DNA of 64,000 nt from Candidatus Dadabacteria bacterium (GCA_963805855.1 CAWDVW010000005.1:768001-832000); one strand, 5' to 3'; shown: positions 44,415 through 59,138, counted from the first letter of the stretch. Notes: generated by a model not told the origin, from the sequence alone. Program-made: numbers and translations.

Positions 44415-45959
44415 ATGAGTAGTGATATAGTTAAAATATTTGATACGACACTCAGAGACGGCGAGCAAGCCCCTGGATGTGGAATGACCGTAGAGGAAAA
44501 GCTCAGGGTTGCTTACCAGTTAGAAAAACTTGGTGTAGACATTATCGAAGCCGGCTTTCCTATCTCCTCGGAGGGTGATTTTCAATCAGTGAAAGTTATT
44601 GCCGATAAAATCAGGGGCTGTGAGATTGCTGGCCTCTGCAGGGCCAATTTCAATGATATAGATAGAGGTTGGGAAGCAATAAAAGGAGCTGAATATCCCA
44701 GGATTCATACCTTCATAGCGACCTCCGACATTCATCTCAAGCACAAACTCAGAAAAGACAAGGAAGAGGTCCTGGAAATAATCAGCGCCGCCGTTAAGCA
44801 CGCTAAGCGATATACTGACAACGTTGAATTCTCGACCGAAGATGCCACCAGAACGGATCTTGATTACCTCTGCCGCTCTGTGGATATAGCCATAAGAGCT
44901 GGTGCTACCACTATTAATATTCCGGATACGGTCGGATATACATTTCCCGAAGAGTTCGCACATATAATAAGAACATTGAAAGAGAAGGTTCCTGGCCTTG
45001 ATAATGTAACATTGAGCGTCCATTGCCATAACGATCTTGGACTGGCGGTCGCAAACTCAATTGCGGCAATTAAGGAGGGTGCGAGGCAGGTTGAATGCAC
45101 GATCAATGGGCTTGGCGAGCGGGCTGGAAATGCATCGCTTGAAGAAATCGTTATGGCACTTAAGGTACGAAGTGACAGACATCCGTATAAAACCCGAATC
45201 GTCACGGAGCAGATCTACCCAACAAGCAGAATAGTGTCACAGGTCACGGGGGTAAGTGTTCAGCCAAATAAAGCGATCGTAGGAGCTAATGCTTTTGCAC
45301 ATGAAGCAGGGATACATCAAGACGGAGTCCTAAAGGAAAGAATTACCTATGAAATAATGAAGGCCGAGGAAATTGGCATTCCTTCAAATAAAATAATCCT
45401 CGGAAAACACTCGGGCAGACATGCATTCAGAAAAAGGCTCGAAGAGTATGGCTATTTTCTAAACGAAGCGGATTTTCTCACCGCATTTAAAAAGTTTAAA
45501 GACCTCGCAGACAAGAAAAAGTACGTTTTTGACGAGGATATTGAAGCACTGATCAGTGAAGAGTTTGTTCGTTCTTCGGATTACTATAAGCTCATTTCGG
45601 CTAACTTTTCGGGCGGGACCGATATGAATCCAGTCGCAACTGTTAAGCTCGATATAGAAGGAGAGGAGGTAATAGTATCCGAGAGCGGTGGGGGCCCGGT
45701 AGATGCCGCCTATAAAGCCATTTCCAAGGCAACTGGTATAAATCCCAATCTTGAACATTACATGGTGGCTTCGATTACTGGTGGTACCGACGCACAAGGC
45801 GAAGTTACCGTAAGAATCGAAGATGATGGAATTTTCTCTCAGGGCCAAGGTTCGAGTACCGACATTGTGGTTGCTAGCGCAAAGGCTTATATAAATGCTC
45901 TCAATAAGCTTAGATGGAGAAAGGAGCACCCTAAAAGAGCAACAACAAGAGGACTTTAG
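44415..45959 (+). CDS. leuA: 2-isopropylmalate synthase
   Basis: [32 protein letters not shown], regulatory GPVDA domain. Confidence 0.97.
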
Positions 45960-46092
45960 GTTCCGGTAACTCGCCATAGCTTGTTTGGACAAGACACATA
46001 GTATAACCTTCTTATATATAGGACTTTTCGGTTGACAATTGAACTATTGGAATAAGTAACACAAGTAAAGTAACTCCAGATTAAACATAGCC

Positions 46093-47580
46093 ATGGCATT
46101 TCCATCCGACAAAATAGCAAGTTGCATAAGGGCTGAATATCCACTTATCTACCTCATTAGTTGGGAAGAAGAACGTGTCGAAGAGTCGTTGAGACTACTT
46201 TCAAAGGAGTCGTTTCATGATGAATATGGTGTATACTCCTGGTCCTGTACCAACGGGTTTAGCGGAGGAAATGGGGTATCAGAAGGAATCGACGACGCCT
46301 TAAGTGCCTTGAAAAAGGTTCAGGAGACCAATCAAAAGGGGTTCTTTCTTTTTAAGGATCTTCACTTTTTTCTTAACGACCCAAAGATAATAAGAGAATT
46401 GAAGGACCTACATCAAACCCTGAAAAGTAGCTCTAAAACCCTGTTCATTATTTCCCCCTCTGCAGTCCTCCCACCTGAACTAGAAAAGGAAATAACAATA
46501 TTCGAAATCGGACTTCCAGATGCAGATGATGCCACGATGATATTTGACGAAGTTACAACTCCATTTAAAGATAGCAGCCGTCAAAATCATTATACCCCTG
46601 AGTTCAGGGAAAAATGCGTTCACGCTTTGCAGGGCCTAGGATCTTCCGAAATGAAATTTGCTCTGAGGAGGATTCTTCTGGATGGAGACGAAAAAAGTGA
46701 AGAAGAGATCGTTACATCCCTCATGGATGAGAAGGCTCTCCTAATAAATAGAACCGGAACGCTGGAGTATGTAAGGGGTAGGGTAGGCTTGGATGACATC
46801 GGTGGCCTGGAAAATCTAAAGGAATGGCTCAAAACCAGGGCATTAGCATTTGGCCCGGATGGCAGGAAACGTGGGCTTGACATGCCCAAGGGATTACTGA
46901 TAATGGGAATAAGCGGTTGTGGTAAGAGCCTATGTGCTAAATCCGTCGCTTCGGTTTGGAATTTACCGCTATTGAGGCTCGACCTAAATCAACTTTATAG
47001 CGGTGTATTTGGAACCCCCGAAGAAGCCTTTCGAAACACAATAAAGACCGTTGAAACAATTTCTCCCTGTGTGCTATGGATAGATGAGATCGAGGCCGGG
47101 ATCACAAGGAGCGGGGAGAAAACGGGCGATAGTCCTGCATCCAGGATATTCGGCTCTTTTCTTACCTGGATGCAAGAAAAGAAACACCCCGTATTTATAG
47201 CTGCCACTGCAAATCAAATCGACCTGCTACCGCCGGAGATCTTGAGAAAGGGCAGGTTCGATGAGATCTTCTTCGTATCCCTTCCATCAAAAATAGATCG
47301 AAAAGAGATATTCCGAATTCATCTTGTCAACCGCCATAAGGATCCCGACTCCTTCGATTTAGATTCCCTTGCCAAGAACACCGAAGGACTTTCCGGCTCA
47401 GAGATCGAACAGGTTGTGGTCTCCGCCCTTTTTGAAGCCTATTCAAAACAAAAGGAATTGGATGACAGAGAACTTATAATCGCAGCGTCTTCTATAGTTC
47501 CACTCTCTACAACGATGCGGGAGGAGATTTCTAGGCTAGAGAGATGGGCATCAGATCGAGCAGTAGCAGCATCAAAGTGA
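46093..47580 (+). CDS. Ycf46-like AAA+ ATPase
   Basis: EEERV N-terminus, GGLENLKEWL, GISGCGKS, WIDEIE, FLTWMQE, RKGRFDE. Confidence 0.9.
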   Translation: MAFPSDKIASCIRAEYPLIYLISWEEERVEESLRLLSKESFHDEYGVYSWSCTNGFSGGNGVSEGIDDALSALKKVQETNQKGFFLFKDLHFFLNDPKIIRELKDLHQTLKSSSKTLFIISPSAVLPPELEKEITIFEIGLPDADDATMIFDEVTTPFKDSSRQNHYTPEFREKCVHALQGLGSSEMKFALRRILLDGDEKSEEEIVTSLMDEKALLINRTGTLEYVRGRVGLDDIGGLENLKEWLKTRALAFGPDGRKRGLDMPKGLLIMGISGCGKSLCAKSVASVWNLPLLRLDLNQLYSGVFGTPEEAFRNTIKTVETISPCVLWIDEIEAGITRSGEKTGDSPASRIFGSFLTWMQEKKHPVFIAATANQIDLLPPEILRKGRFDEIFFVSLPSKIDRKEIFRIHLVNRHKDPDSFDLDSLAKNTEGLSGSEIEQVVVSALFEAYSKQKELDDRELIIAASSIVPLSTTMREEISRLERWASDRAVAASK

Positions 47581-47696
47581 ACCCTTAAGACGAAATTGAA
47601 ATCATTTCACCGGGAACATGGTGAAATGAATCAATCTCAGATGTTTTCTCGTCAATGATTACGATATAAATTCTCTATCAAGATAGTAAGTGGCAT

Positions 47697-47791
47697 AAAA
47701 AAGAAAAGTGGGAATGATCTAAAGGCTTTAGAAACATTCCCACTATCTTAAAGGAGGATGGAGGATGATTTAAGTTTTCAAATTAAATACA
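47697..47791 (-). ncRNA. Candidate sRNA 1 (anti-SD motifs, terminator hairpin)
   Basis: Minus-strand promoter TTGACA(47826)-17-TATATT; UCAUCCUCCAUCCUCCUUU; AGTGGGAATG/CATTCCCACT stem plus U-tract; paralog at 53910-53996. Confidence 0.6.
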
Positions 47792-47948
47792 ATTATTAAT
47801 ATAAAGCAATTTACTTAAGTTGTCAAGTAGTTTTTTAATTTAATTAATTAATTTGCTTTTGGTTAGTATTTTTTGGTAATTTTAGATAAAATTTTTAGTC
47901 GGCCATATTTAATGTACAGAGAAACTGAATGTTTTTCTTACAACAAGT

Positions 47949-48025
47949 GGGGATGTAGCTCAGACTGGGAGAGCGCCGCCTTCGCAAGGCGGAGGTCGGG
48001 GGTTCGAATCCCCTCATCTCCACCA
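47949..48025 (+). tRNA. tRNA-Ala(CGC)
   Basis: GGGGATG/CATCTCC acceptor with G3:U70, CCGCC-TTCGCAA-GGCGG, GGTTCGAATCC, CCA. Confidence 0.95.
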
Positions 48026-48082
48026 CTAAATTTTATATTAATTACCTTGAGTTAAAACAATTACATTAGTGTCCATAGTCTC

Positions 48083-48301
48083 TTAATTTGTGTCTGAGGT
48101 GTCCGAATAGGTGTCTATCGCAGCCGATTTTAAGCGATTTCCTGGCTTATAGATAGCGGATTTTTTAGCCTCTTCCCAGGTATGACTGTATCGCTGCAGC
48201 ATCCTCATATCTTTATGTCCAGATATAGCCATTACGGTTGCGTTATCTTCTTTTTCATCAACTATGAGGGTCGAGACAAAAGTATGTCTCATATCGTGAA
48301 A
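48083..48301 (-). pseudogene. C-terminal remnant of a tyrosine integrase
   Basis: FHDMRHTF...SGHKDMRMLQRYSH (box II); N-terminal part replaced by backbone repeat. Confidence 0.85.
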
Positions 48302-48306
48302 GCTTC

Positions 48307-48388
48307 CGGGGTAAGGTGATCTTGTATTACTACAGGGAGAAAACGCCTTCACGCCTGATATAGCGGGGTTAAAATGGCTAAACTGCAC
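48307..48388 (+). repeat. Island backbone repeat, copy A
   Basis: CGGGGTAAGGT...GAGAAAACGCC...TTAAAATGGCTAAACTGCAC. Confidence 0.8.
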
Positions 48389-48406
48389 GTCCGATTAATT
48401 GCGTTG

Positions 48407-48727
48407 TTAGATGTCATTGGTTTGTTTCCGACCTTTTTGATAGGGAACAAGAATCACTTTCTTATTACCCCAATAGATGATTAGGCCTAAAAACGCATAA
48501 CTGACAAGCGCTGGGATAAGCCACTCAAGACCTCGGAAGTACAGCAACATTGTAAAAACCAACGAAATGACAGCTATAAAGATACAGAAGGCTTGTCTGT
48601 ATTTTGTATCGGTATCGACCATGAACCTCCCTCGGCAATTGGGGCATATTCTGTAATTCTTGAAGAGGCCTTGGTGGCGAAGCTCCCTTAAACAAATCTC
48701 AATCTCGCAGTATGGACATGTTGTCAT
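48407..48727 (-). CDS. Small zinc-ribbon membrane protein; probable integron-type cassette gene
   Basis: CPYC...CPNC plus two TM segments; preceded by GTTAGGT; stop overlaps ATCTAAC. Confidence 0.75.
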   Translation of the reverse strand: MTTCPYCEIEICLRELRHQGLFKNYRICPNCRGRFMVDTDTKYRQAFCIFIAVISLVFTMLLYFRGLEWLIPALVSYAFLGLIIYWGNKKVILVPYQKGRKQTNDI

Positions 48728-48738
48728 CGAGAGATCAC

Positions 48739-48895
48739 ACCTAACTGTTAATTAGACTGCAATAATGCAGCATAATTCCCTATGAGGGATTTTATCCTGC
48801 AAATCGCTCTTCTAGTTGATACTAAGATAAATGTAATTTCTAGTCAATATGAATGTATAGGAAAAATGAGCTACCCCCATAATAAGTCCATAACG
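48739..48895 (-). promoter_or_regulatory. Promoter plus attI-like platform, copy 1
   Basis: TTGACT-17-TAGTAT, ends TAATTAACA-GTTAGGT; homologous to 62307-62466. Confidence 0.6.
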
Positions 48896-48986
48896 AGAAC
48901 TAGATTTTTGATGAGCAACGCTGTAGACAGGAACTCATCAGAGTAATTAGGAAGGATTACATTTGTGAAATTTATATAATTCCATA

Positions 48987-49826
48987 CTATGCCGCCTGCC
49001 ATCTAACCTCATACAGCCGCACAGGCTCATCGAAACCACGTAGCGGTATCTCACCCTGGTCGGAAAATGGCAATTTCTTGCCGATGCACAGATCTTGTAT
49101 TACACGTGTGACCAAAATCTGTTCAGGTTTAGCATGGTCACAGATGCGAGCAGCGAGTTGGACGGTGGAGCCAAATAGATCCTGGCCTCCCGTGACGGGC
49201 TCACCAGCAGTGATGCCAATGCGAAGGTGGATAGTAGCGATGGGCTCCTTATTATTACAAGAAGCAACAGCCCTTTGAATAGACATAGCACACTCTACAG
49301 CGCGAGAAACAGAGCAAAAGGAAACCATGAAACCGTCACCTGTGTGTTTAACTTCGTTGCCATCATGAGTCTTTATAACATCGCGAATAATGGCATCATG
49401 AGTACGAAGGAGTTCCATGGCTTTAGAGTCCCCGAGGCGTGTTGTTATAGTCGTGGAACCCTCCATATCCGTGAACATGATAGTGCGAAAGGCAGAGTCT
49501 ATTATTGGTACGTTACTGGTAGGCGCAGGCGACTTGGTTGGCATTGGCGGGTCCTCAATTCTTCCAAGGAACGCCTTCACGGCCCCAGGGTTGACTTCGA
49601 TGATTTCGCTGGGAACATGTCCATGAGCTTCATGGTGCATCTGCTCTACAGCTTGTTTTCTCGGAGCCTCTATTAAACAAAAAGTCGTACCATTTGCTTC
49701 ATCAAACCAATATGTCAGGGCCTTGCAACCATACTTGTCTTGGATTTCAAGATCTTTCTGATGGGCCTCTGCAACTTCAGTTGCAGTCGTGCCTTTGATG
49801 TCATGACGATCCATATAGATAGGCAT
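48987..49826 (-). CDS. DUF4242 (SCO4226-like) plus class III adenylate/guanylate cyclase
   Basis: MPIYMDRH..AHQKDL..FCLIEAP..HHEAHG; MFTDMEGST, KHTGDG, RIGI..GE, LAARI. Confidence 0.88.
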   Translation of the reverse strand: MPIYMDRHDIKGTTATEVAEAHQKDLEIQDKYGCKALTYWFDEANGTTFCLIEAPRKQAVEQMHHEAHGHVPSEIIEVNPGAVKAFLGRIEDPPMPTKSPAPTSNVPIIDSAFRTIMFTDMEGSTTITTRLGDSKAMELLRTHDAIIRDVIKTHDGNEVKHTGDGFMVSFCSVSRAVECAMSIQRAVASCNNKEPIATIHLRIGITAGEPVTGGQDLFGSTVQLAARICDHAKPEQILVTRVIQDLCIGKKLPFSDQGEIPLRGFDEPVRLYEVRWQAA

Positions 49827-50594
49827 TCGATCCTCCCTGTCTCAATAAAGGCGACCTGTCTAATTATTTTATACAGCTCAATTGGAAGCCTCACTTGCAT
49901 ATGCTCAATTTTTGCATTATCCAGTTTAGGTTGTTCCATAGTAGCTCATGATAATGTATGAGCGCATGTAGGTCAATGTCAGAGATAATAAATATAGAGT
50001 TTTAAAGCAACGCTTAAAATACAGTTTCGCTATTAACGCCGTAGAGATGTTTTAATCTGAAAAGTTACACTATAACCTCTCTTAAAAAAATCTTTTAACC
50101 TTGCTTTATAGACAAGCTATAACAAGCATTTCCAAGTCTTATTTTGAGTAGAAATATCTTACATTAAGTAGTACAATTGGTGGTTGAGATTTTAAGTCAG
50201 GGGAGAGCTACTATAGTGAATTGACCCATCTGTACTGATCCCCTTTTGTCAAGAAGGGTTTAAGTTGGAATTATGTGATTCATATCTCGTTCAAACTGGC
50301 TTTGCGAGCAAGAATCCGGGGAAATTGTACGGTTCCTATCGGTTTATATTGGTTTCTTTGCATTGTCCGTATTCTAAGAACCCGCGCTGCACACCATTTA
50401 GTATGGATTCAAGGTAAATAACTACTCCGGAAATGTATCATTAGCGATTCCCGCCCTAATGGTGTTTTCTATTTATTGTTAAGCTTCGTAGTTACGAAGG
50501 GGCAGTTCTTTTTTGATTCGTCAAATATTGTAATTCAAGGTATAAAACTTTAGTATACTTATATATAGCGTACAAAATCGTTAGGAGGATTGGA

Positions 50595-51638
50595 ATGAAA
50601 TTAACTAAACCGCATGTGTTCGCTTTTGTACTCCTCTTGTACCTTATGTCCATAGGGGGCTGTAACGATAGTGAGAATTCCGGTGATGCGAATGTTCCTG
50701 CTTTAGTACCTTTTGATTTGAATGTCGCTGTGGAGTTGGCGACCCTAAGCCTTGTAGCTTATGACCAGCGTCTTCAGTGTATTAGCGGAGGTAAGGATGC
50801 GATAACGGTACCGGAAGGTTTCAAATTACAGGAGGTAATTTATCAACAGGTCGATACTAGTACGGATAGTGGTTGTAAGGACGATCCTCAGATAATCCCC
50901 ATAGCATTTATCGCAACGAAAGATGATAAAATCTTTCTCTCTTTCAGAGGGACTGCAAGCGTTTCGGATGAACTTGCAGACGCGCTGATTGAGCAAGAGC
51001 CGTTTACGTTTTTTATGATGGCTCCAGCAACCAATGCAAAGGTACAGCAAGGTTTCAACGAAGTATACATGGAGATCCGGGGGCCTATATTTGAAAAGAT
51101 AGAAGCTTTATCGAATGAGATGCAAGACGATGTGTTCAAATACAATACCTTGTTTATTACCGGACACAGCCTGGGGGCCGCACTCGCGGTGCTTGCAGTA
51201 CCCGACCTTAAGGAGGGTATTGAAAATCTTCCTCCGGTGGTAATGTACAACTTTGCCGGACCGAGTGTAGGAAATCCTGATTTTGTAGATCTGTATATGC
51301 AATCTGTACGCTCAAGCTGGAGGGTGGTAAATACGAAAGACGTTATTCCGAAACTGCCCCCGACAACGCTGGATTGCGACAATTACAGGTATGAGCATGC
51401 AGCAGGTGAATGGGATATTAAATTCGGGCCTAATCTTCCAGCTCTGCCTAAATTCAGTTGCAAAAATATTGGTATTATACAAGCTCAGATTTTGGAATAT
51501 CTATCAGATAATGAAAAGAAGGTGGAGATAGATCACAGCATGTGTACGTACCATGACACTCTTTGTGAAGAGCTCGTGGGCAATGAAGATTGTGCGGATA
51601 CCACAGACAATTCGCTCCATTGCACCCAATCTGAGTAG
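50595..51638 (+). CDS. Class 3 lipase lipoprotein
   Basis: Lipobox-like GGC, SFRGT, GHSLG, DVIPKLP, C-terminal His. Confidence 0.88.
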   Translation: MKLTKPHVFAFVLLLYLMSIGGCNDSENSGDANVPALVPFDLNVAVELATLSLVAYDQRLQCISGGKDAITVPEGFKLQEVIYQQVDTSTDSGCKDDPQIIPIAFIATKDDKIFLSFRGTASVSDELADALIEQEPFTFFMMAPATNAKVQQGFNEVYMEIRGPIFEKIEALSNEMQDDVFKYNTLFITGHSLGAALAVLAVPDLKEGIENLPPVVMYNFAGPSVGNPDFVDLYMQSVRSSWRVVNTKDVIPKLPPTTLDCDNYRYEHAAGEWDIKFGPNLPALPKFSCKNIGIIQAQILEYLSDNEKKVEIDHSMCTYHDTLCEELVGNEDCADTTDNSLHCTQSE

Positions 51639-51705
51639 TCAGATCGAACTATCCCGAATTAATGTTGAAATAAGCGTTTACTTTTCTGTACTGCTTACTT
51701 TATTA

Positions 51706-52476
51706 TCAAGCAGCGTTTAAATGTACAGTATGATTTTTGCAATAATCCTCTTCCACCTGAATCGGCGAGCGGTATCCAAGAGCTGAATGAAGGTAATTCC
51801 GGTTGTAATAATCAACCCATTTATCCAGTCCCTTATTTAACTCCGCTTCACCCTTCCATTCCGTTAGCCAAAAGAGCTCTTCTTTCATTGTTCTTATCAT
51901 TCTCTCTGTATCTGCGTTTCCTTTAGGGTTATTGTAGCTCGTAAATACTTGCTGAACTCCCAGATTAGAACAGGTTTTAATAAAGCTGAGTGAAGTAGGC
52001 TGACTCCCGTTATCACTCATAAGCTTAAGTCCATGTCCTCTTACTCCTCCAGGGAACTCCCTGTTTAGTCCTTTCTCTAAAGCTTCCAGCCATTCTCTAC
52101 TTGTAGCTCTTGTTCCACTGTAGTGACCTACTATCTTCTTCGTATATCAGTCTAGTACTATTACAACATATACCCAGCCGCTGTCAGTGATAACCTTTGT
52201 CATATCTATTCCCCACCACTGCTTAGGCTTATTCGGTTTAGGCTTTGGTCTTTCTGACACTCTATTTGCTATTAGTCTTGGGTTAGGTTTTACAGTAAGG
52301 TTATGCTCTCTCATTAACCTGTATATACGCTTCTTGTTTATTATTAATCCATCTACAAATCGAAGATATGCCCATACTCTCCTGTAACCCCAGAAGGGAT
52401 GTTCTGGTTTTATATCTTTTATCCTTTCAAGTAAGTATTCGTTACGGAGACTTACAGAGTTTGACGGCATTCTCAT
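51706..52476 (-). pseudogene. IS3 transposase OrfB with in-frame TGA at 52147-52149
   Basis: VIVLD*YTKKIVG reads in frame into SDNG...NADTER. Confidence 0.85.
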
Positions 52477-52748
52477 ATAAACTCGTCGTCTGTTTTTTTT
52501 AATTCAACAGTGAGTGAGCCTATTATTTGTTTTAACTCTTTATTCTTCTGACGGAGGCGGTCTATTTCTCCAGTGTCTTTTTTAGAATCAAACGCCTTAT
52601 GAGCTTCGGATAGAAACTTGTCACGCCAAGTGTAGTATTGGTTTTGATGTATTCCGTACTCGTTACATATCTCTGAAACAGGTCGTCCTGACAAGCCTTC
52701 AAGTACTATCTTGGTCTTGGTTTTAGAATCCCATCTTCTTCGCTTCAT
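52473..52748 (-). CDS. IS3 transposase OrfA
   Basis: KIVLEGLSG..VSEICNEYGI..NQYYTWRDKF; ATGA overlap with orfB. Confidence 0.85.
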   Translation of the reverse strand: MKRRRWDSKTKTKIVLEGLSGRPVSEICNEYGIHQNQYYTWRDKFLSEAHKAFDSKKDTGEIDRLRQKNKELKQIIGSLTVELKKTDDEFI

Positions 52749-53043
52749 TGCTCCCTCTCCTTTTACCATAAAATTTACTAGCTTAATTCTACTAGCTTCT
52801 TAATGGGGAGCAGTATAAATCATCAAATGGCTCTTTTTTGAATCCATTTCTTTTTTTTAGCATGACGTATGGCCTGCAGTATACTTATGCGGGAGGAAAG
52901 TTTTAATTTCTTAGATTTGATATTGTAAATCTCTTTTGAAATATGTTATATTGCTTCCGAAAATTTAAAATCACAAACACATTCGCAAGATCAATCGCTT
53001 CATAGCTTGAACAAATTAATCGAGTCGTAAAGGAGGATAGGGT

Positions 53044-53877
53044 ATGACGCGGAAAGATTTCAAGATTCATTTTTTCAAATTTGAAAGCACAGTACCAAAA
53101 TTCCTTAATATCAAACTTTACCACATTAAAATAATCCTAATCTCATTTTTTGGACTCACGCTGGTATCACTTCTGTCGTTCGTTATTGCATACAAGTATT
53201 ACAAAAGAGCTGAAATAAGTACCAATCAGAAAAGAGAACTGGCCGACCAGCTAAAGAGTCAGTCAAACGTACTAGACGAAATGAGCAAGGATGAACTTGT
53301 ATTGAAATCCAGGTTAGTAGAAATCGAAAAGAAGCTCTTGGAAATGCAGGAGTTACTTGACAAAAAGGGGATAAACAAAGAATTGTCTGTCGGAGGTAAG
53401 TACATCCCGGCCGACGGACTGGAATTATCCTATCTTGATAACATGGAAAAGGATATATATGAGCTGTTTAATGTTATCAAGAGCTATCCCCTGGGTAAGC
53501 CCATGATACAGACCGCTATCAGATCGGGTTTTGGATATAGAAGGGATCCGTTCAAATCCAGACCGGCTTTTCACTCCGGAATAGACTTCGAAGCCAAACC
53601 TGGACAGCCAGTATTTGCGACGGCTGACGGATTAGTCGAAAAAGCGGGCTGGTACTATAGTTATGGCAACACGGTAATAATCAACCATGAAAACGGGTAC
53701 GAAACACTTTATGGACACTTAACAAGGGCAGATGTGAAAGAAGGACAAAGGGTGAAGAGTGGCGATCTTATTGGCAATGCAGGTTCCACTGGAAGGTCCA
53801 CTGGGACACACCTGCATTACGAAATAATAAAAAACGGCAAGAAGCTAAACCCCTCTAAGTACTTAAGTTTAAAGTAA
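53044..53877 (+). CDS. M23 family metallopeptidase
   Basis: HSGIDF, YGHL, STGTHLHYE; N-terminal TM and coiled coil. Confidence 0.93.
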   Translation: MTRKDFKIHFFKFESTVPKFLNIKLYHIKIILISFFGLTLVSLLSFVIAYKYYKRAEISTNQKRELADQLKSQSNVLDEMSKDELVLKSRLVEIEKKLLEMQELLDKKGINKELSVGGKYIPADGLELSYLDNMEKDIYELFNVIKSYPLGKPMIQTAIRSGFGYRRDPFKSRPAFHSGIDFEAKPGQPVFATADGLVEKAGWYYSYGNTVIINHENGYETLYGHLTRADVKEGQRVKSGDLIGNAGSTGRSTGTHLHYEIIKNGKKLNPSKYLSLK

Positions 53878-53909
53878 CTTTATTCTCAGCAAACTTATTT
53901 CGTAAATTT

Positions 53910-53996
53910 CTAGAGGGAATGCTCCCGGGTTTAGAAACATTCCCACTTTAAAGGAGGATAAAGGATGAAATGCGTTAAGTTGAAGGGCTAAGTGTA
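53910..53996 (-). ncRNA. Candidate sRNA 2, paralog of 47697-47791
   Basis: Perfect TTGACA(54031)-17-TATAAT(54008-54003) on minus strand; UCAUCCUUUAUCCUCCUUU; GGGAATG/CATTCCC stem. Confidence 0.6.
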
Positions 53997-54210
53997 ATAT
54001 CGATTATAAAGTAAGTTACTTAATGTGTCAAGAGGAAAAGTTCTTTCTCTTCTAATACCCCTAACTCGTTACAAAAAAGCTAATTTCTTCTTGAAAGTTG
54101 AACCCGCCATGATATACTGACCAAATCAACATATAAAAATTAAACCCTGCATCGAAAAACTATTAACAATCCTCATGTCGGTTTGAAACATACTCCAAAA
54201 TAGTAACCTT

Positions 54211-54282
54211 GGCGGCGTAGCTCAGAGGTAGAGCAGGGCTCTCATAAGGCCTTTGTCGGAGGTTCGATTCCTCCCGCCGCCA
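54211..54282 (+). tRNA. tRNA-Met(CAT), elongator-like; CCA not encoded
   Basis: GGCGGCG/CGCCGCC acceptor, CTCATAA anticodon loop, GGTTCGATTCC; Ile2 identity not excluded. Confidence 0.9.
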
Positions 54283-54325
54283 GTAATGATTTATCAATAC
54301 ATAAAGCTAGTTATATAGAAGTAGT

Positions 54326-55369
54326 TTAGAAATGAGTCTTGGGCATAACTAGCGAGGTGTCCGAGGAGGTGTCTATATCCGCTAATTCGACAGCCCTTTT
54401 CTTATGTTCTGGCGTCGGGTGAGAATACCGCTTTGTCATAGCTATTGTTTTATGTCCTAGCAACTCTTGAACCGTTACTATATCAACTCCAGCCATTATC
54501 CCTCTTGTAGCAAAGGTATGCCTCAAAGTATGGAATGTACAATGCGCGATTCCGGAACGCTTTAGAGCAGTTCCAAATGATCTATAAATATATTCTATTG
54601 GCTTTCCGTCCCTATAGGAGAATAGATATTCATCATCAGTATTATTTTTTAAGTCCACAAGAATCCTTGTTAGACGCTGGCTCATGGGAATAGCTCTTGA
54701 TTCATAGTTTTTACTATCCCTTACAATGATGTATCCATTCTCAAAGTCTATATCTTCCCACTTTAAGTTAAGAATCTCGCCTTTACGCATCCCCGTGGAT
54801 CTTGCTACAAAAAGTATCGGTTTCAGGTGAAGGGAAGCCGAATTATAAAGGAGTTGAAATTCTTCATCGCTAAGCACTCTAGGTTTCTCTAAAGGCGTCT
54901 TAAAAAACTTTACCCCCTTTACTGGGTTTTGATCTATTTTCCCCCAATGGATAGCCAGGTTAAATATCCTTTTGAAAACCGTCATCTCTCTATTTATTGT
55001 AGATAGAGCTTTACCTTCCTCTTTTCTAAAAGACTTATATTTCTCAACATGCCATGAAGTAATACTGCCAAGTGGCATTTTACCGAAATGTCTATTCAAT
55101 ACTTTACTTATGGTTATATCCCTCTTGTAGGAGCGATGATTGTCCTTTGCATAGTTTAAATATTCCTCCACGATCCGGCTAAATAGAATCGGCTTCATTA
55201 CTTTTTCTAACCCGAACTTACCTTGGACTATTTCCCCCACTCTTGCTTTTAGCGCTTTTTCTGCCGTTGATCTTGTTATCTTATCTATATGCCCTACGAC
55301 TTCTCTTTTACGTTTTCCATTATAGTAATAATCGATATACCAACGATTACCTTTAATATATACTCCCAT
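54326..55369 (-). CDS. Phage-type tyrosine integrase, intact
   Basis: N-terminal arm-binding-like WYIDYY; TGMRKGE, HTLRH, LGH, RY catalytic residues; converges on tRNA 3' end; no IntI-type insertion apparent. Confidence 0.95.
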   Translation of the reverse strand: MGVYIKGNRWYIDYYYNGKRKREVVGHIDKITRSTAEKALKARVGEIVQGKFGLEKVMKPILFSRIVEEYLNYAKDNHRSYKRDITISKVLNRHFGKMPLGSITSWHVEKYKSFRKEEGKALSTINREMTVFKRIFNLAIHWGKIDQNPVKGVKFFKTPLEKPRVLSDEEFQLLYNSASLHLKPILFVARSTGMRKGEILNLKWEDIDFENGYIIVRDSKNYESRAIPMSQRLTRILVDLKNNTDDEYLFSYRDGKPIEYIYRSFGTALKRSGIAHCTFHTLRHTFATRGIMAGVDIVTVQELLGHKTIAMTKRYSHPTPEHKKRAVELADIDTSSDTSLVMPKTHF

Positions 55370-59039: not shown

Positions 59040-59138
59040 AATAGTTCTAAACGATGAGGGCTACCCCGTTAGGGGACGCAAAGCCGTAGGTCTTAAGCAT
59101 TTGCTTAAGGTAGCTTGGTTGCCGAACTTAGAGCTATT
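59040..59138 (+). ncRNA. Cyclic di-GMP-I (GEMM) riboswitch, variant
   Basis: GGGGACGCAAAGCC..GGTCTTAAG..GGTAGC..GGTTGCCGAA core in a 5' UTR; flanking AATAGTTCTAA/TTAGAGCTATT stem. Confidence 0.8.

What the first reader, a model, noticed from the sequence alone, without database searches (positions are those of the whole stretch)
47697..54031. Two paralogous candidate sRNAs with anti-Shine-Dalgarno motifs, each back-to-back with a tRNA
Seen: at 47697-47826 and 53910-54031 the minus strand has TTGACA-17-TATATT / TTGACA-17-TATAAT with similar spacers. A roughly 90-nt non-coding stretch follows, carrying UCAUCCU(CC/UU)AUCCUCCUUUAA and then AGUGGGAAUGUUUCUAAA...CAUUCCC, a hairpin whose inner part differs but still pairs. 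No conserved ORF exists on either strand. Known: UCCUCC is complementary to SD sequences and is the seed of several trans-acting sRNA families. Inference: a possibly undescribed multicopy sRNA family that represses translation by pairing with RBS (UCAUCCUCC could also cover an AUG). Its repeated position opposite an integrase-targeted tRNA is unexplained.
Basis: partly seen in the sequence, partly recalled or inferred. Interest (0 to 1): 0.72.

Follow-up and report, generated by a model that had tools for sequence, protein, structure and literature searches.

The report
Multicopy anti-ribosome-binding-site small RNA family
These are two of four copies of a conserved, apparently undescribed ~90-nucleotide small RNA gene of the uncultured Candidatus Dadabacteria whose exposed CCUCC-rich stretch is complementary to ribosome-binding sites, so it most likely blocks translation of selected mRNAs.

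Summary
Window 47697-47826 and 53910-54031 (minus strand) each hold a near-consensus sigma-70 promoter, about 30 nt of 5' sequence, an unpaired UCAUCCU(CC/UU)AUCCUCCUUUAA stretch and a GC hairpin.

- **Copies and range.** The genome has four copies. A covariance model finds the family in 91 of 101 genomes of the same order, at 1-5 matches per genome. It is not found in 19 genomes of the sister family. No Rfam family matches.
- **Structure.** The hairpin covaries: 10 of 11 pairs show double changes. G-U pairs place the RNA on the promoter strand. There is no conserved ORF, and all four copies face a convergent downstream gene.
- **Best reading.** A trans-acting anti-Shine-Dalgarno/anti-AUG sRNA, analogous to streptococcal csRNAs but not a member of that family. 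Hfq was not found, so it probably acts without it. No expression data could be obtained.

New here:
- Promoter, spacer palindrome and first ~25 transcribed nt are shared with gspC, the first gene of a type II secretion operon.
- tRNA-Met adjacency is conserved synteny. The integrases lie on the other side of the tRNAs and look incidental.
- The best predicted target, a 112-aa signal-peptide protein, keeps a tandem GGAGG start region in many orthologues.

The scan found this family before on other DNA (note e1-1089040). It is a new member of a known kind.

The parts
47697..47826 (-). sRNA gene copy 1, from the -35 hexamer to the U-run; the predicted RNA of about 95 nt runs from about 47791 to 47697
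   Evidence: Sequence. R1 covariance-model hit at 121.7 bits, E 1.7e-15. The fold has z -4.5. The start site is inferred from the -10 position, not measured.
47798..47826 (-). Promoter of copy 1: TTGACA, 17-nt spacer, TATATT
   Evidence: Matches 11 of 12 in the promoter scan and is the second-best site in window 47000-55000.
47802..47818 (.). O1: palindrome-like spacer element TTAAGT-N5-GCTTTA; putative operator
   Evidence: Found as a one-mismatch match to T[TA]AAGT-N5-ACTT[TA]A. The AAGTA/TACTT columns are invariant or nearly so in 38 homologues. Protein binding is inferred.
47770..47786 (.). O2: second palindrome-like element TTAATT-N5-ACTTAA at about +5 to +21; also forms the 5' hairpin of the RNA
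   Evidence: The TTAA and CTTAA columns are nearly invariant in alignment A3.
47748..47768 (-). Seed UCAUCCUCCAUCCUCCUUUAA: tandem anti-SD plus CAU
   Evidence: It is unpaired in the minimum-energy and centroid folds. CCUCCUUU is identical to part of the 16S 3' tail.
47697..47744 (-). Terminator of copy 1: hairpin at 47707-47744, then UUUUCUUUUUU
   Evidence: Fold. Across 58 distinct homologues, 96.2% of cells pair and 10 of 11 pairs show double changes.
53910..54031 (-). sRNA gene copy 2, the tRNA-Met-linked syntenic copy; seed variant UCAUCCUUUAUCCUCCUUUAA
   Evidence: Sequence. R1 hit at 107.1 bits, E 3.3e-13.
54003..54031 (-). Promoter of copy 2: TTGACA, 17-nt spacer, TATAAT
   Evidence: Matches 12 of 12 and is the best site in window 47000-55000.
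54007..54023 (.). O1 of copy 2: TTAAGT-AACTT-ACTTTA, an exact match to the palindrome pattern
   Evidence: One of six strict matches in the 3.1-Mb genome.
53948..53968 (-). Seed of copy 2
   Evidence: two mismatches to copy 1.
53915..53944 (-). 3' hairpin of copy 2; no U-run follows it
   Evidence: Fold and sequence.
54210..54283 (+). tRNA-Met(CAT), elongator type, divergent neighbour of copy 2 (conserved synteny)
   Evidence: ARAGORN and Rfam. It has a G1-C72 acceptor end and differs from the two CGCGGGG-type tRNAs of the genome. 27 related loci show the same arrangement.
47949..48025 (+). tRNA-Ala(CGC), divergent neighbour of copy 1
   Evidence: The arrangement was seen in 4 distinct elements: this genome, its two congeners and G007.
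53027..53047 (+). Start region of the M23 peptidase gene (53044-53877), GUAAAGGAGGAUAGGGUAUGA; candidate target
   Evidence: 4 mismatches to the full 21-nt seed complement. Fifth-best mean duplex energy among 2,928 crude ORF starts. Pfam M23 at 7e-38. Pairing is predicted only.

Best explanation
Each locus is a free-standing gene for a small RNA of about 90-95 nt.

- **Transcription.** The RNA is made from the minus strand, from a strong sigma-70-type promoter.
- **Anatomy.** It has a short 5' part (a weak UUAA/UUAA hairpin), an unpaired 21-nt stretch UCAUCCUCCAUCCUCCUUUAA and a GC-rich terminator hairpin.
- **Proposed action.** The unpaired stretch is the complement of an idealised start region: UUAAAGGAGG, a 7-nt spacer, then AUGA. 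It shares CCUCCUUU with the 16S rRNA 3' tail. The RNA therefore most likely pairs with the Shine-Dalgarno sequence and start codon of selected mRNAs and blocks ribosome loading. Hfq was not found in this genome, so it probably works without it.
- **Family.** The four paralogues belong to a family conserved across one order of Candidatus Dadabacteria.
- **Proposed regulation.** The genes carry the same palindromic elements, T(T/A)AAGT-N5-ACTT(T/A)A, in the promoter spacer and at about +5 to +21 as the gspC promoter of the type II secretion operon. They are probably switched by the same DNA-binding regulator.

Shown computationally: gene anatomy, conservation, strand, covariation, the shared promoter module and complementarity. 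Inferred: transcription itself, repression, target identity and the regulator.
For: - **Copies.** There are four copies in the genome.
- **Conservation.** 38 distinct homologues align from the -35 hexamer to the terminator, with an invariant seed. Model R1 hits 91 of 101 genomes of the order at E<=1e-3, with 1-5 matches each. It hits 0 of 19 genomes of sister family f9. An exact-pattern scan of species genomes gave 32 loci. Their titles were Dadabacteria (8), Thermodesulfobacteriota (10), Desulfobacterota (2), Deltaproteobacteria (6), uncultured bacterium (3), Spirochaetia (2) and Brocadia (1).
- **Terminator.** Across 58 distinct sequences, 96.2% of cells pair and 10 of 11 pairs show double changes. 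None of 500 shuffles reached the covariation score, and slid controls paired 40-55%. The alignment was fitted to the model.
- **Strand.** 53 G-U cells against 24 unpaired cells on the promoter strand. The G-U cells would be A-C mismatches on the other strand. U-runs follow the hairpin on this strand in most members.
- **Seed accessibility.** The seed is unpaired in the minimum-energy folds of 3 of 4 copies.
- **Core element.** Variants in other families keep the seed although promoter or terminator differ.
- **Orphan placement.** All 4 of 4 copies are followed by a convergent gene.
- **16S tail.** The 16S 3' end reads GGAUCACCUCCUUUU.
- **Predicted target.** Among 2,928 crude ORF starts, C2:232637-232975 is the outlier. 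Its duplex with the 21-nt core is -30.0 kcal/mol, against a background mean of -11.9 and sd of 4.3. Of 29 orthologue start regions, 13 fall below the background 1st percentile and 19 below the 5th. Outside the own genus the figure is 10 of 26 below the 1st percentile.
- **Shared promoter module.** The weak R1 hit lies upstream of gspC in 6 of 6 genomes examined. Of 30 fetched loci matching the shared promoter/leader pattern, 18 precede gspC, 1 probably does and 11 are sRNA genes. gspC heads a gspC-D-E-F-G-pseudopilin-K operon.
- **Palindrome.** The strict palindrome has 6 sites in the genome, 5 of them in sRNA genes.
Against: - No transcript evidence of any kind could be obtained.
- Copy 2 and copy 4 lack a U-run after the hairpin, so termination there is uncertain.
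- An anti-SD seed is complementary to most start regions, so the specificity of any one target is weak. The target ranking rests on crude ORF calls and duplex energies without accessibility.
- No control gene family was run for the orthologue test, and orthologues are not independent.
- The covariation alignment was fitted to the model.
- 10 of 101 genomes gave no hit at E<=1e-3, including 6 of 6 in family f7. At looser thresholds one f7 genome shows a divergent CUCCUCCUCC variant.
- Hfq was not found, so no chaperone is in view (genome 93.8% complete).
Confidence: 0.65

Rival explanations
1. Global competitor for Shine-Dalgarno sequences. The RNA carries two tandem copies of the 16S-tail-like anti-SD. 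When induced from up to five genes, it would titrate Shine-Dalgarno sequences in general. Translation would be throttled or re-weighted broadly, favouring SD-less mRNAs such as gspC, rather than a few targets being repressed.
For: - CCUCCUUU is identical to part of the 16S 3' tail.
- The seed complements the consensus start region. About 5% of 2,928 start regions reach -19 kcal/mol or lower.
- The genes are multicopy with strong promoters.
- The co-regulated gspC leader has no SD in 6 of 6 genomes examined.
Against: - One start region stands far out of the distribution and keeps its unusual tandem GGAGG across families. This argues for specific selection.
- Stoichiometric titration of all mRNAs would need very high sRNA levels.
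- No expression data exist.
Confidence: 0.12
2. Protein-binding or decoy RNA. The CU-rich stretch, or the 5' segment shared with the gspC leader, would sequester an RNA-binding protein, for example a regulator of gspC translation, rather than pairing with mRNAs.
For: - The first ~25 transcribed nt (UUAA-N8-CUUAA) are shared between the sRNAs and the gspC 5'UTR.
- The repeated 7-mer AUCCUCC resembles a repeated protein-binding site.
Against: - The same palindrome also sits in the untranscribed promoter spacer. That points to a DNA-level operator rather than an RNA motif.
- Variants with other 5' parts keep only the seed.
- No candidate protein was identified, and CsrA and Hfq were not found.
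Confidence: 0.1
3. A DNA-level element without RNA function. The repeated promoter/operator plus hairpin modules would be regulator-binding sites, or remnants of integration sites or mobile elements beside tRNAs.
For: - Both window copies sit beside tRNAs that have an integrase or an integrase fragment on the far side.
- The conserved palindromes look like operators.
Against: - The most conserved part, the seed, is downstream of the promoter and is not palindromic.
- The hairpin covaries like RNA, with a G-U strand bias.
- The elements lie on the 5' side of the tRNAs, whereas integrases target the 3' side.
- 2 of 4 copies have no tRNA within 30 kb.
- Positions are syntenic across families, with no flanking repeats noted.
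Confidence: 0.05
4. The functional transcript is the opposite (plus) strand. It would be a GGA-rich RNA (AAGGAGGAUGGAGGAUGA) acting as a CsrA-type sponge, or a leader with a strong ribosome-binding site and a mini-ORF.
For: - The plus strand shows four GGA motifs and an SD-like AAGGAGG followed by ATG.
Against: - CsrA was not found in this genome.
- The short plus-strand frames read by eye are not conserved: MEDDLSFQIKYNY, MKCVKLKG, MEDCSI (sequences).
- The conserved promoter and the U-runs are on the minus strand.
- 53 G-U cells of the hairpin would become A-C mismatches.
- The sequence beyond the hairpin, where a plus-strand promoter would lie, is not conserved.
Confidence: 0.03

Closest known systems
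csRNAs (cia-dependent small RNAs) of Streptococcus
   Same: - Several highly similar sRNA genes per genome.
- Sequences complementary to the SD and to AUG (CAU) lie in an unpaired region between a 5' stem-loop and the terminator.
- All copies are driven by one conserved, regulator-specific promoter architecture that is also used by protein-coding genes of the regulon.

From passages read in PMC3091779, compared.
   Different: - The taxon is unrelated.
- There is no sequence or Rfam match.
- The promoter has a -35 TTGACA and palindromic T(T/A)AAGT-N5-ACTT(T/A)A elements in the spacer and at about +5 to +21. It lacks the CiaR direct repeat NTTAAG-N5-TTTAAG set 10 nt upstream of the -10.
- The seed is a tandem AUCCUCC repeat.
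- The co-regulated operon is type II secretion.
Cuckoo RNA family (CcsR/RSs0680, SmelC397 and others) of Alphaproteobacteria
   Same: - An anti-SD-like pyrimidine motif (CCUCCUCCC) is the only strongly conserved sequence.
- Stems vary through compensatory changes.
- Several copies occur per genome.

From passages read in PMC4615179.
   Different: - There the motif sits in the loops of 2-4 adjacent hairpins. Here it lies in a single-stranded linker before one terminator hairpin.
- The motif sequence differs.
- One member of that family is directly bound by Hfq, whereas Hfq was not found here.
LhrC multicopy sRNA family of Listeria
   Same: A multicopy sRNA induced under cell-envelope stress, with the two-component system LisRK involved. 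This comes from the abstract in a search listing only. The C-rich seed and the Hfq-independence of the family are recalled, not read.
   Different: No sequence relation was tested beyond the negative Rfam scans. The organism, promoter and motif differ.

Membership tests
csRNA (Streptococcus, CiaRH regulon) | Promoter with the CiaR direct repeat NTTAAG-N5-TTTAAG, 10 nt upstream of the -10 (PMC3091779) | tested here: not met
   The alignment of 38 homologues shows TTGACA-N1-2-TTAAGTAA-N4-5-CTTTAT. A single TTAAG forms part of an inverted repeat, and there is no second TTTAAG repeat.
csRNA (Streptococcus, CiaRH regulon) | [quoted passage not shown] | tested here: met
   The seed UCAUCCUCCAUCCUCCUUUAA is unpaired in the minimum-energy folds of copies 1, 3 and 4 and partly paired in copy 2.
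csRNA (Streptococcus, CiaRH regulon) | Sequence or structure homology to known members | tested here: not met
   No Rfam 15 family matched at gathering score over the window. None matched at E<=10 over copy 1 or at E<=1 over five further copies. Whether Rfam holds a csRNA model was not checked.
Cuckoo RNA family | 2-4 adjacent hairpins, each with CCUCCUCCC in the loop (PMC4615179) | tested here: not met
   There is one terminator hairpin and a weak 5' hairpin. The pyrimidine motif lies between them and reads CCUCCAUCCUCC.
Trans-encoded base-pairing sRNA (generic class) | Own promoter, intrinsic terminator, no conserved ORF, and not the leader of a downstream gene | tested here: met
   - Promoters.
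- Covarying terminator.
- ORFs.
- Convergent downstream gene at 4 of 4 copies.
- Copies 2 and 4 lack a U-run.
Trans-encoded base-pairing sRNA (generic class) | The transcript exists and represses targets by pairing | not testable with these tools
   No RNA run was listed. Target pairing is predicted only.
Hfq-dependent sRNAs | Hfq encoded in the genome | tested here: not met
   PF17209 gave no match in G000, which is 93.84% complete. The control search hit 5 of 14 reference genomes.
CsrA-sequestering sRNAs (CsrB/RsmY type) | Multiple GGA motifs on the transcribed strand, and CsrA present | tested here: not met
   The GGA motifs are on the strand opposite the promoter. PF02599 gave no match in G000.

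The most novel reading that the evidence does not exclude
The sRNA genes and the type II secretion operon form one regulon under a single palindrome-binding regulator. The sRNAs carry two tandem copies of the 16S-tail anti-SD and act as a mimic of the ribosome's mRNA-binding tail. When secretion is switched on, they would re-programme translation broadly. Strong-SD mRNAs would be damped, including a conserved small secreted protein with a tandem-GGAGG start region. SD-less messages such as gspC would be spared.
Probability: 0.12. Interest if true: 0.75.

Novelty: new member of a known kind. Interest (0 to 1): 0.5.

Why it matters
Candidatus Dadabacteria are uncultured, and the one literature search made for them returned no paper on their regulatory RNAs. 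This family would be a first handle on post-transcriptional control in the lineage. It is nearly universal in one order and multicopy, and the seed is invariant in the 38 aligned homologues.

It comes with a testable regulon hypothesis. The same promoter and operator module drives the type II secretion operon. There is also one concrete, conserved target prediction.

It adds an independent example of convergent evolution of multicopy anti-SD/anti-AUG sRNAs. It could be added to RNA family databases to improve annotation of these metagenome-assembled genomes.

Tried and rejected
- **RNA runs.** Searching public RNA runs with window 45000-54999 listed no RNA holder.
- **Rfam.** Gathering and E-value scans returned only tRNAs, one c-di-GMP-I riboswitch elsewhere in the window, and chance-level snoRNA/miRNA matches.
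- **Secreted-protein targets.** I tested whether predicted targets are enriched for signal-peptide-like N-termini. The top 50 held 12 (24%) against 13.5% overall (p=0.03). Among genes with a strong SD the effect vanished (Mann-Whitney p=0.43), so the idea was dropped.
- **Initiator tRNA.** The neighbouring tRNA-Met is not the initiator. It has a G1-C72 end, and the two CGCGGGG-type tRNAs lie elsewhere.
- **Seed displayed in a loop.** I considered that 5' CUUAA pairs with UUAAG after the seed, which would put the seed in a loop. RNAalifold did not predict this, and family f2 lacks the pairing.
- **Conserved small ORF.** None is shared on either strand (plus-strand frames read by eye).
- **Chaperone or sponge partner.** Hfq and CsrA were not found.
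- **Identity of the 112-aa target.** There was no Pfam hit above cut-off. The Atlas returned only 'hypothetical protein' clusters.
- **Lost script machine.** The script machine was lost. A control gene family for the orthologue-complementarity test could not be run. Flanking genes of copies 3 and 4 were read with the ORF listing instead.


Full report
**1. Observation**

- Copy 1 has TTGACA, a 17-nt spacer and TATATT. Copy 2 has TTGACA, a 17-nt spacer and TATAAT.
- About 30 nt follow, then UCAUCCUCCAUCCUCCUUUAA in copy 1 and UCAUCCUUUAUCCUCCUUUAA in copy 2.
- A hairpin follows. Its outer arms (GUGGGAAUG/CAUUCCC) are shared and its inner part differs but still pairs.

These two promoters are the best two of 26 promoter-like sites in window 47000-55000, matching 12/12 and 11/12. 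The shared 18-mer of the hairpin arm occurs exactly twice in the window against 0.07 expected. Similarity is confined to the stretch from the -35 hexamer to the 3' arm of the hairpin.

ARAGORN and Rfam place tRNA-Ala(CGC) at 47949-48025 and tRNA-Met(CAT) at 54210-54283, both on the plus strand. They lie 123 and 179 nt upstream of the two promoters and are divergent. Copy 1 ends in UUUUCUUUUUU, whereas copy 2 has no U-run.

**2. A conserved, multicopy family**

The window is G000:C5:768001-832000. The 3.1-Mb genome holds four copies:
- the two in the window;
- C7:132118-132258 (minus strand);
- C5:341246-341388 (plus strand).

Exact-pattern scans gave the following:
- The element occurs in 13 of 41 relatives.
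- It occurs in 32 loci of the species-genome collection. Their titles read Candidatus Dadabacteria (8), Thermodesulfobacteriota (10), Desulfobacterota (2), Deltaproteobacteria (6), uncultured bacterium (3), Spirochaetia (2) and Brocadia (1).

The organism is therefore a member of Candidatus Dadabacteria.

Thirty-eight distinct homologues align from the -35 hexamer to the terminator, and the seed is invariant. A covariance model built from them gave these results:
- At E<=1e-3 it hits 91 of 101 genomes of the order, with 1-5 matches per genome. By family: f1 14/14, f2 33/33, f8 35/37, f7 0/6.
- It hits none of 19 genomes of sister family f9, which has genomes of about 1 Mb.

More distant members keep the seed while other parts change:
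- Genus g16 has UUCAUCCUUCAUCCUCCUUUA with a different terminator.
- Two f3 genomes have another promoter.
- One g24 genome has two extra copies with both a different promoter and a different terminator.
- One f7 genome has CUCCUCCUCCUGCC.

The seed is thus the conserved core.

**3. An RNA gene on the promoter strand**

- **Covariation.** On 58 distinct sequences, the terminator helix forms standard pairs in 96.2% of cells, and 10 of 11 pairs show changes on both sides. No shuffle out of 500 reached the observed covariation score, and slid controls paired only 40-55%. The alignment was fitted to the model. An independent RNAalifold run on the MAFFT alignment gave the same helix, with 6 of 11 pairs showing double changes.
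- **Strand.** The helix holds 53 G-U cells against 24 unpaired cells. The G-U cells would be A-C mismatches on the other strand. Most members have a U-run after the hairpin on this strand.
- **Seed accessibility.** Minimum-energy folds leave the seed unpaired in copies 1, 3 and 4.
- **No coding frame.** No ORF is conserved.
- **Not a leader.** In all four copies the next gene downstream is convergent, so the element does not lead into a downstream gene.
- **Not a known family.** No Rfam family matches.
- **No expression data.** No public RNA run holding this DNA was listed, so transcription itself remains inferred.

**4. Likely mechanism**

The seed is the exact complement of UUAAAGGAGG-AUGGAGG-AUGA: a Shine-Dalgarno sequence, a 7-nt spacer and a start codon. 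It shares CCUCCUUU with the 16S 3' end, GGAUCACCUCCUUUU.

I called 2,928 ORFs crudely and computed duplex energies against their start regions.
- **Top candidate.** One gene stands apart: C2:232637-232975, a 112-aa protein with a signal-peptide-like N-terminus and no Pfam family.
- **Its start region.** It reads cuuaaaggagggugaggAUGA. Its duplex with the 21-nt core is -30.0 kcal/mol, against a background mean of -11.9 and sd of 4.3.
- **Orthologues.** They were found in 37 of 61 genomes searched, and 30 loci were fetched. One locus, cut by a contig end, was dropped.
- **Conservation of pairing.** Of the remaining 29, 13 fall below the background 1st percentile and 19 below the 5th. Excluding the own genus, 10 of 26 fall below the 1st percentile.
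- **Sequence variation.** Many orthologues keep an unusual tandem GGAGG-N1-2-G(G)AGG-AUG although the sequences differ, for example uggagguggaggAUG, cggaggaggaggAUG and ggagggggaggAUG.

This fits a conserved sRNA-target pair. However, no control gene family was run, and orthologues are not independent.

The M23 peptidase gene convergent with copy 2 (window 53044-53877) ranks fifth by mean energy. An apparent enrichment of signal-peptide proteins among top candidates vanished after controlling for SD strength. Hfq and CsrA were not found.

**5. Regulation**

The promoter spacer carries T(T/A)AAGT-N5-ACTT(T/A)A, and a second copy lies at about +5 to +21. The strict pattern occurs six times in the whole genome, five of them in the sRNA genes.

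The fifth, weak model hit in the genome lies in front of a GspC-like gene (PF11356, 3.8e-10). It has the same -35 hexamer, spacer palindrome, -10 hexamer and UUAA-N8-CUUAA leader. The start codon follows directly and there is no SD.
- The same arrangement holds in 5 of 5 relatives checked.
- A pattern for the shared module matches 51 of 101 genomes of the order.
- Of 30 fetched loci, 18 precede gspC, 1 probably does and 11 are sRNA genes.

gspC heads a full gspC-D-E-F-G-pseudopilin-K operon. I infer a common regulator, probably a repressor because the site fills the spacer of a 17-nt promoter. This would give a regulon that joins the sRNAs to type II secretion. The regulator was not identified.

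**6. The tRNA question**

In this genome, 2 of 4 copies lie beside a tRNA. The other two have none within 30 kb.

Among 57 distinct seed-pattern matches in the fetched loci, 31 have a divergent tRNA within 400 nt upstream: 27 tRNA-Met(CAT) and 4 tRNA-Ala(CGC). Two qualifications apply:
- Two of the 57 are the antisense of the M23 start region, not sRNA genes.
- The set is biased towards the best hit per genome.

An M23 peptidase orthologue lies nearby in 41 loci. Copy 2 is therefore the ancestral, syntenic copy. The tRNA-Ala arrangement was seen in 4 distinct elements: this genome, its two congeners and G007.

The tRNA-Met is of elongator type, not the initiator. The integrase (54326-55369) and the integrase fragment (48083-48388) lie beyond the 3' ends of the tRNAs, on the far side from the sRNA genes. 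A similar integrase next to the tRNA-Met recurs in only one other genome among the fetched loci. The link with integrases therefore looks incidental.

**7. Comparison with known systems and verdict**

The closest analogue is the streptococcal csRNA family. It is multicopy, has anti-SD and anti-AUG sequences in an unpaired region between stem-loops, and has one regulator-specific promoter (passages of PMC3091779). Membership fails on the CiaR direct repeat, on homology and on taxon.

Cuckoo RNAs carry CCUCCUCCC in hairpin loops (passages of PMC4615179), which is a different architecture.

A literature search for Dadabacteria plus 'small RNA' returned two unrelated papers.

My analysis is independent of it and agrees.

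Verdict: a real, conserved, apparently undescribed sRNA family, and a new member of a known kind. The shared type II secretion promoter module and the conserved target prediction are the added points of interest.

Noticed in passing
G000:C5:960179-960308 (minus strand; loci L104, L187), outside the window: The gspC gene, first of a gspC-D-E-F-G-pseudopilin-K type II secretion operon, has the same -35 hexamer, spacer palindrome, -10 hexamer and first ~25 transcribed nt as the sRNA genes. Its start codon follows CUUAA directly, with no Shine-Dalgarno sequence. The arrangement is conserved across several families of the order.
   Followed up: yes
G000:C2:232637-232975 (locus L127), outside the window: A 112-aa signal-peptide protein with no Pfam family has a tandem GGAGG start region complementary to the whole seed. 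A conserved TGGTATAAAT-like extended -10 lies about 40 nt upstream in many orthologues.
   Followed up: partly
window 59049-59126 (+): A c-di-GMP-I riboswitch aptamer scores 43.5 bits, above the gathering score of 35.
   Followed up: no
window 48083-52769: An island-like stretch lies after tRNA-Ala. It holds an integrase C-terminal fragment (48083-48388), a SCO4226-like plus adenylate/guanylate cyclase protein (48987-49826), a class 3 lipase (50595-51638) and three short ORFs with transposase domains, HTH_Tnp_1, HTH_21 and rve_3 (51706-52769). These look like a broken IS element.
   Followed up: partly
G000:C2:49030, C5:284810, C5:986937: An unrelated repeat..ggctgtccaaaATCCTCCTTTACgaaaggaggaaatt.., contains a CCTCCTTT/AAAGGAGG hairpin. 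One copy has a duplicated ATCCTCCTT.
   Followed up: no
G000:C5:1042821-1043204 and C7:669041-669397: ARAGORN calls two tmRNA genes. Crude ORFs near the end of contig C5 (about 1,045,000-1,086,000) have visibly GC-rich start regions, unlike the rest of the genome. This may be a foreign or mis-binned segment.
   Followed up: no
G000:C7:217510-217526: This is the only strict match to the palindrome T[TA]AAGT-N5-ACTT[TA]A outside the sRNA genes. Its context was not examined.
   Followed up: no
locus L119 1501-1640 (-) and L120 1501-1635 (-), genome G042: Two extra sRNA-like genes keep the seed AUCCUCCAUCCUCC(A)UUUAAGAG but have a different promoter and a different, strong terminator.
   Followed up: partly
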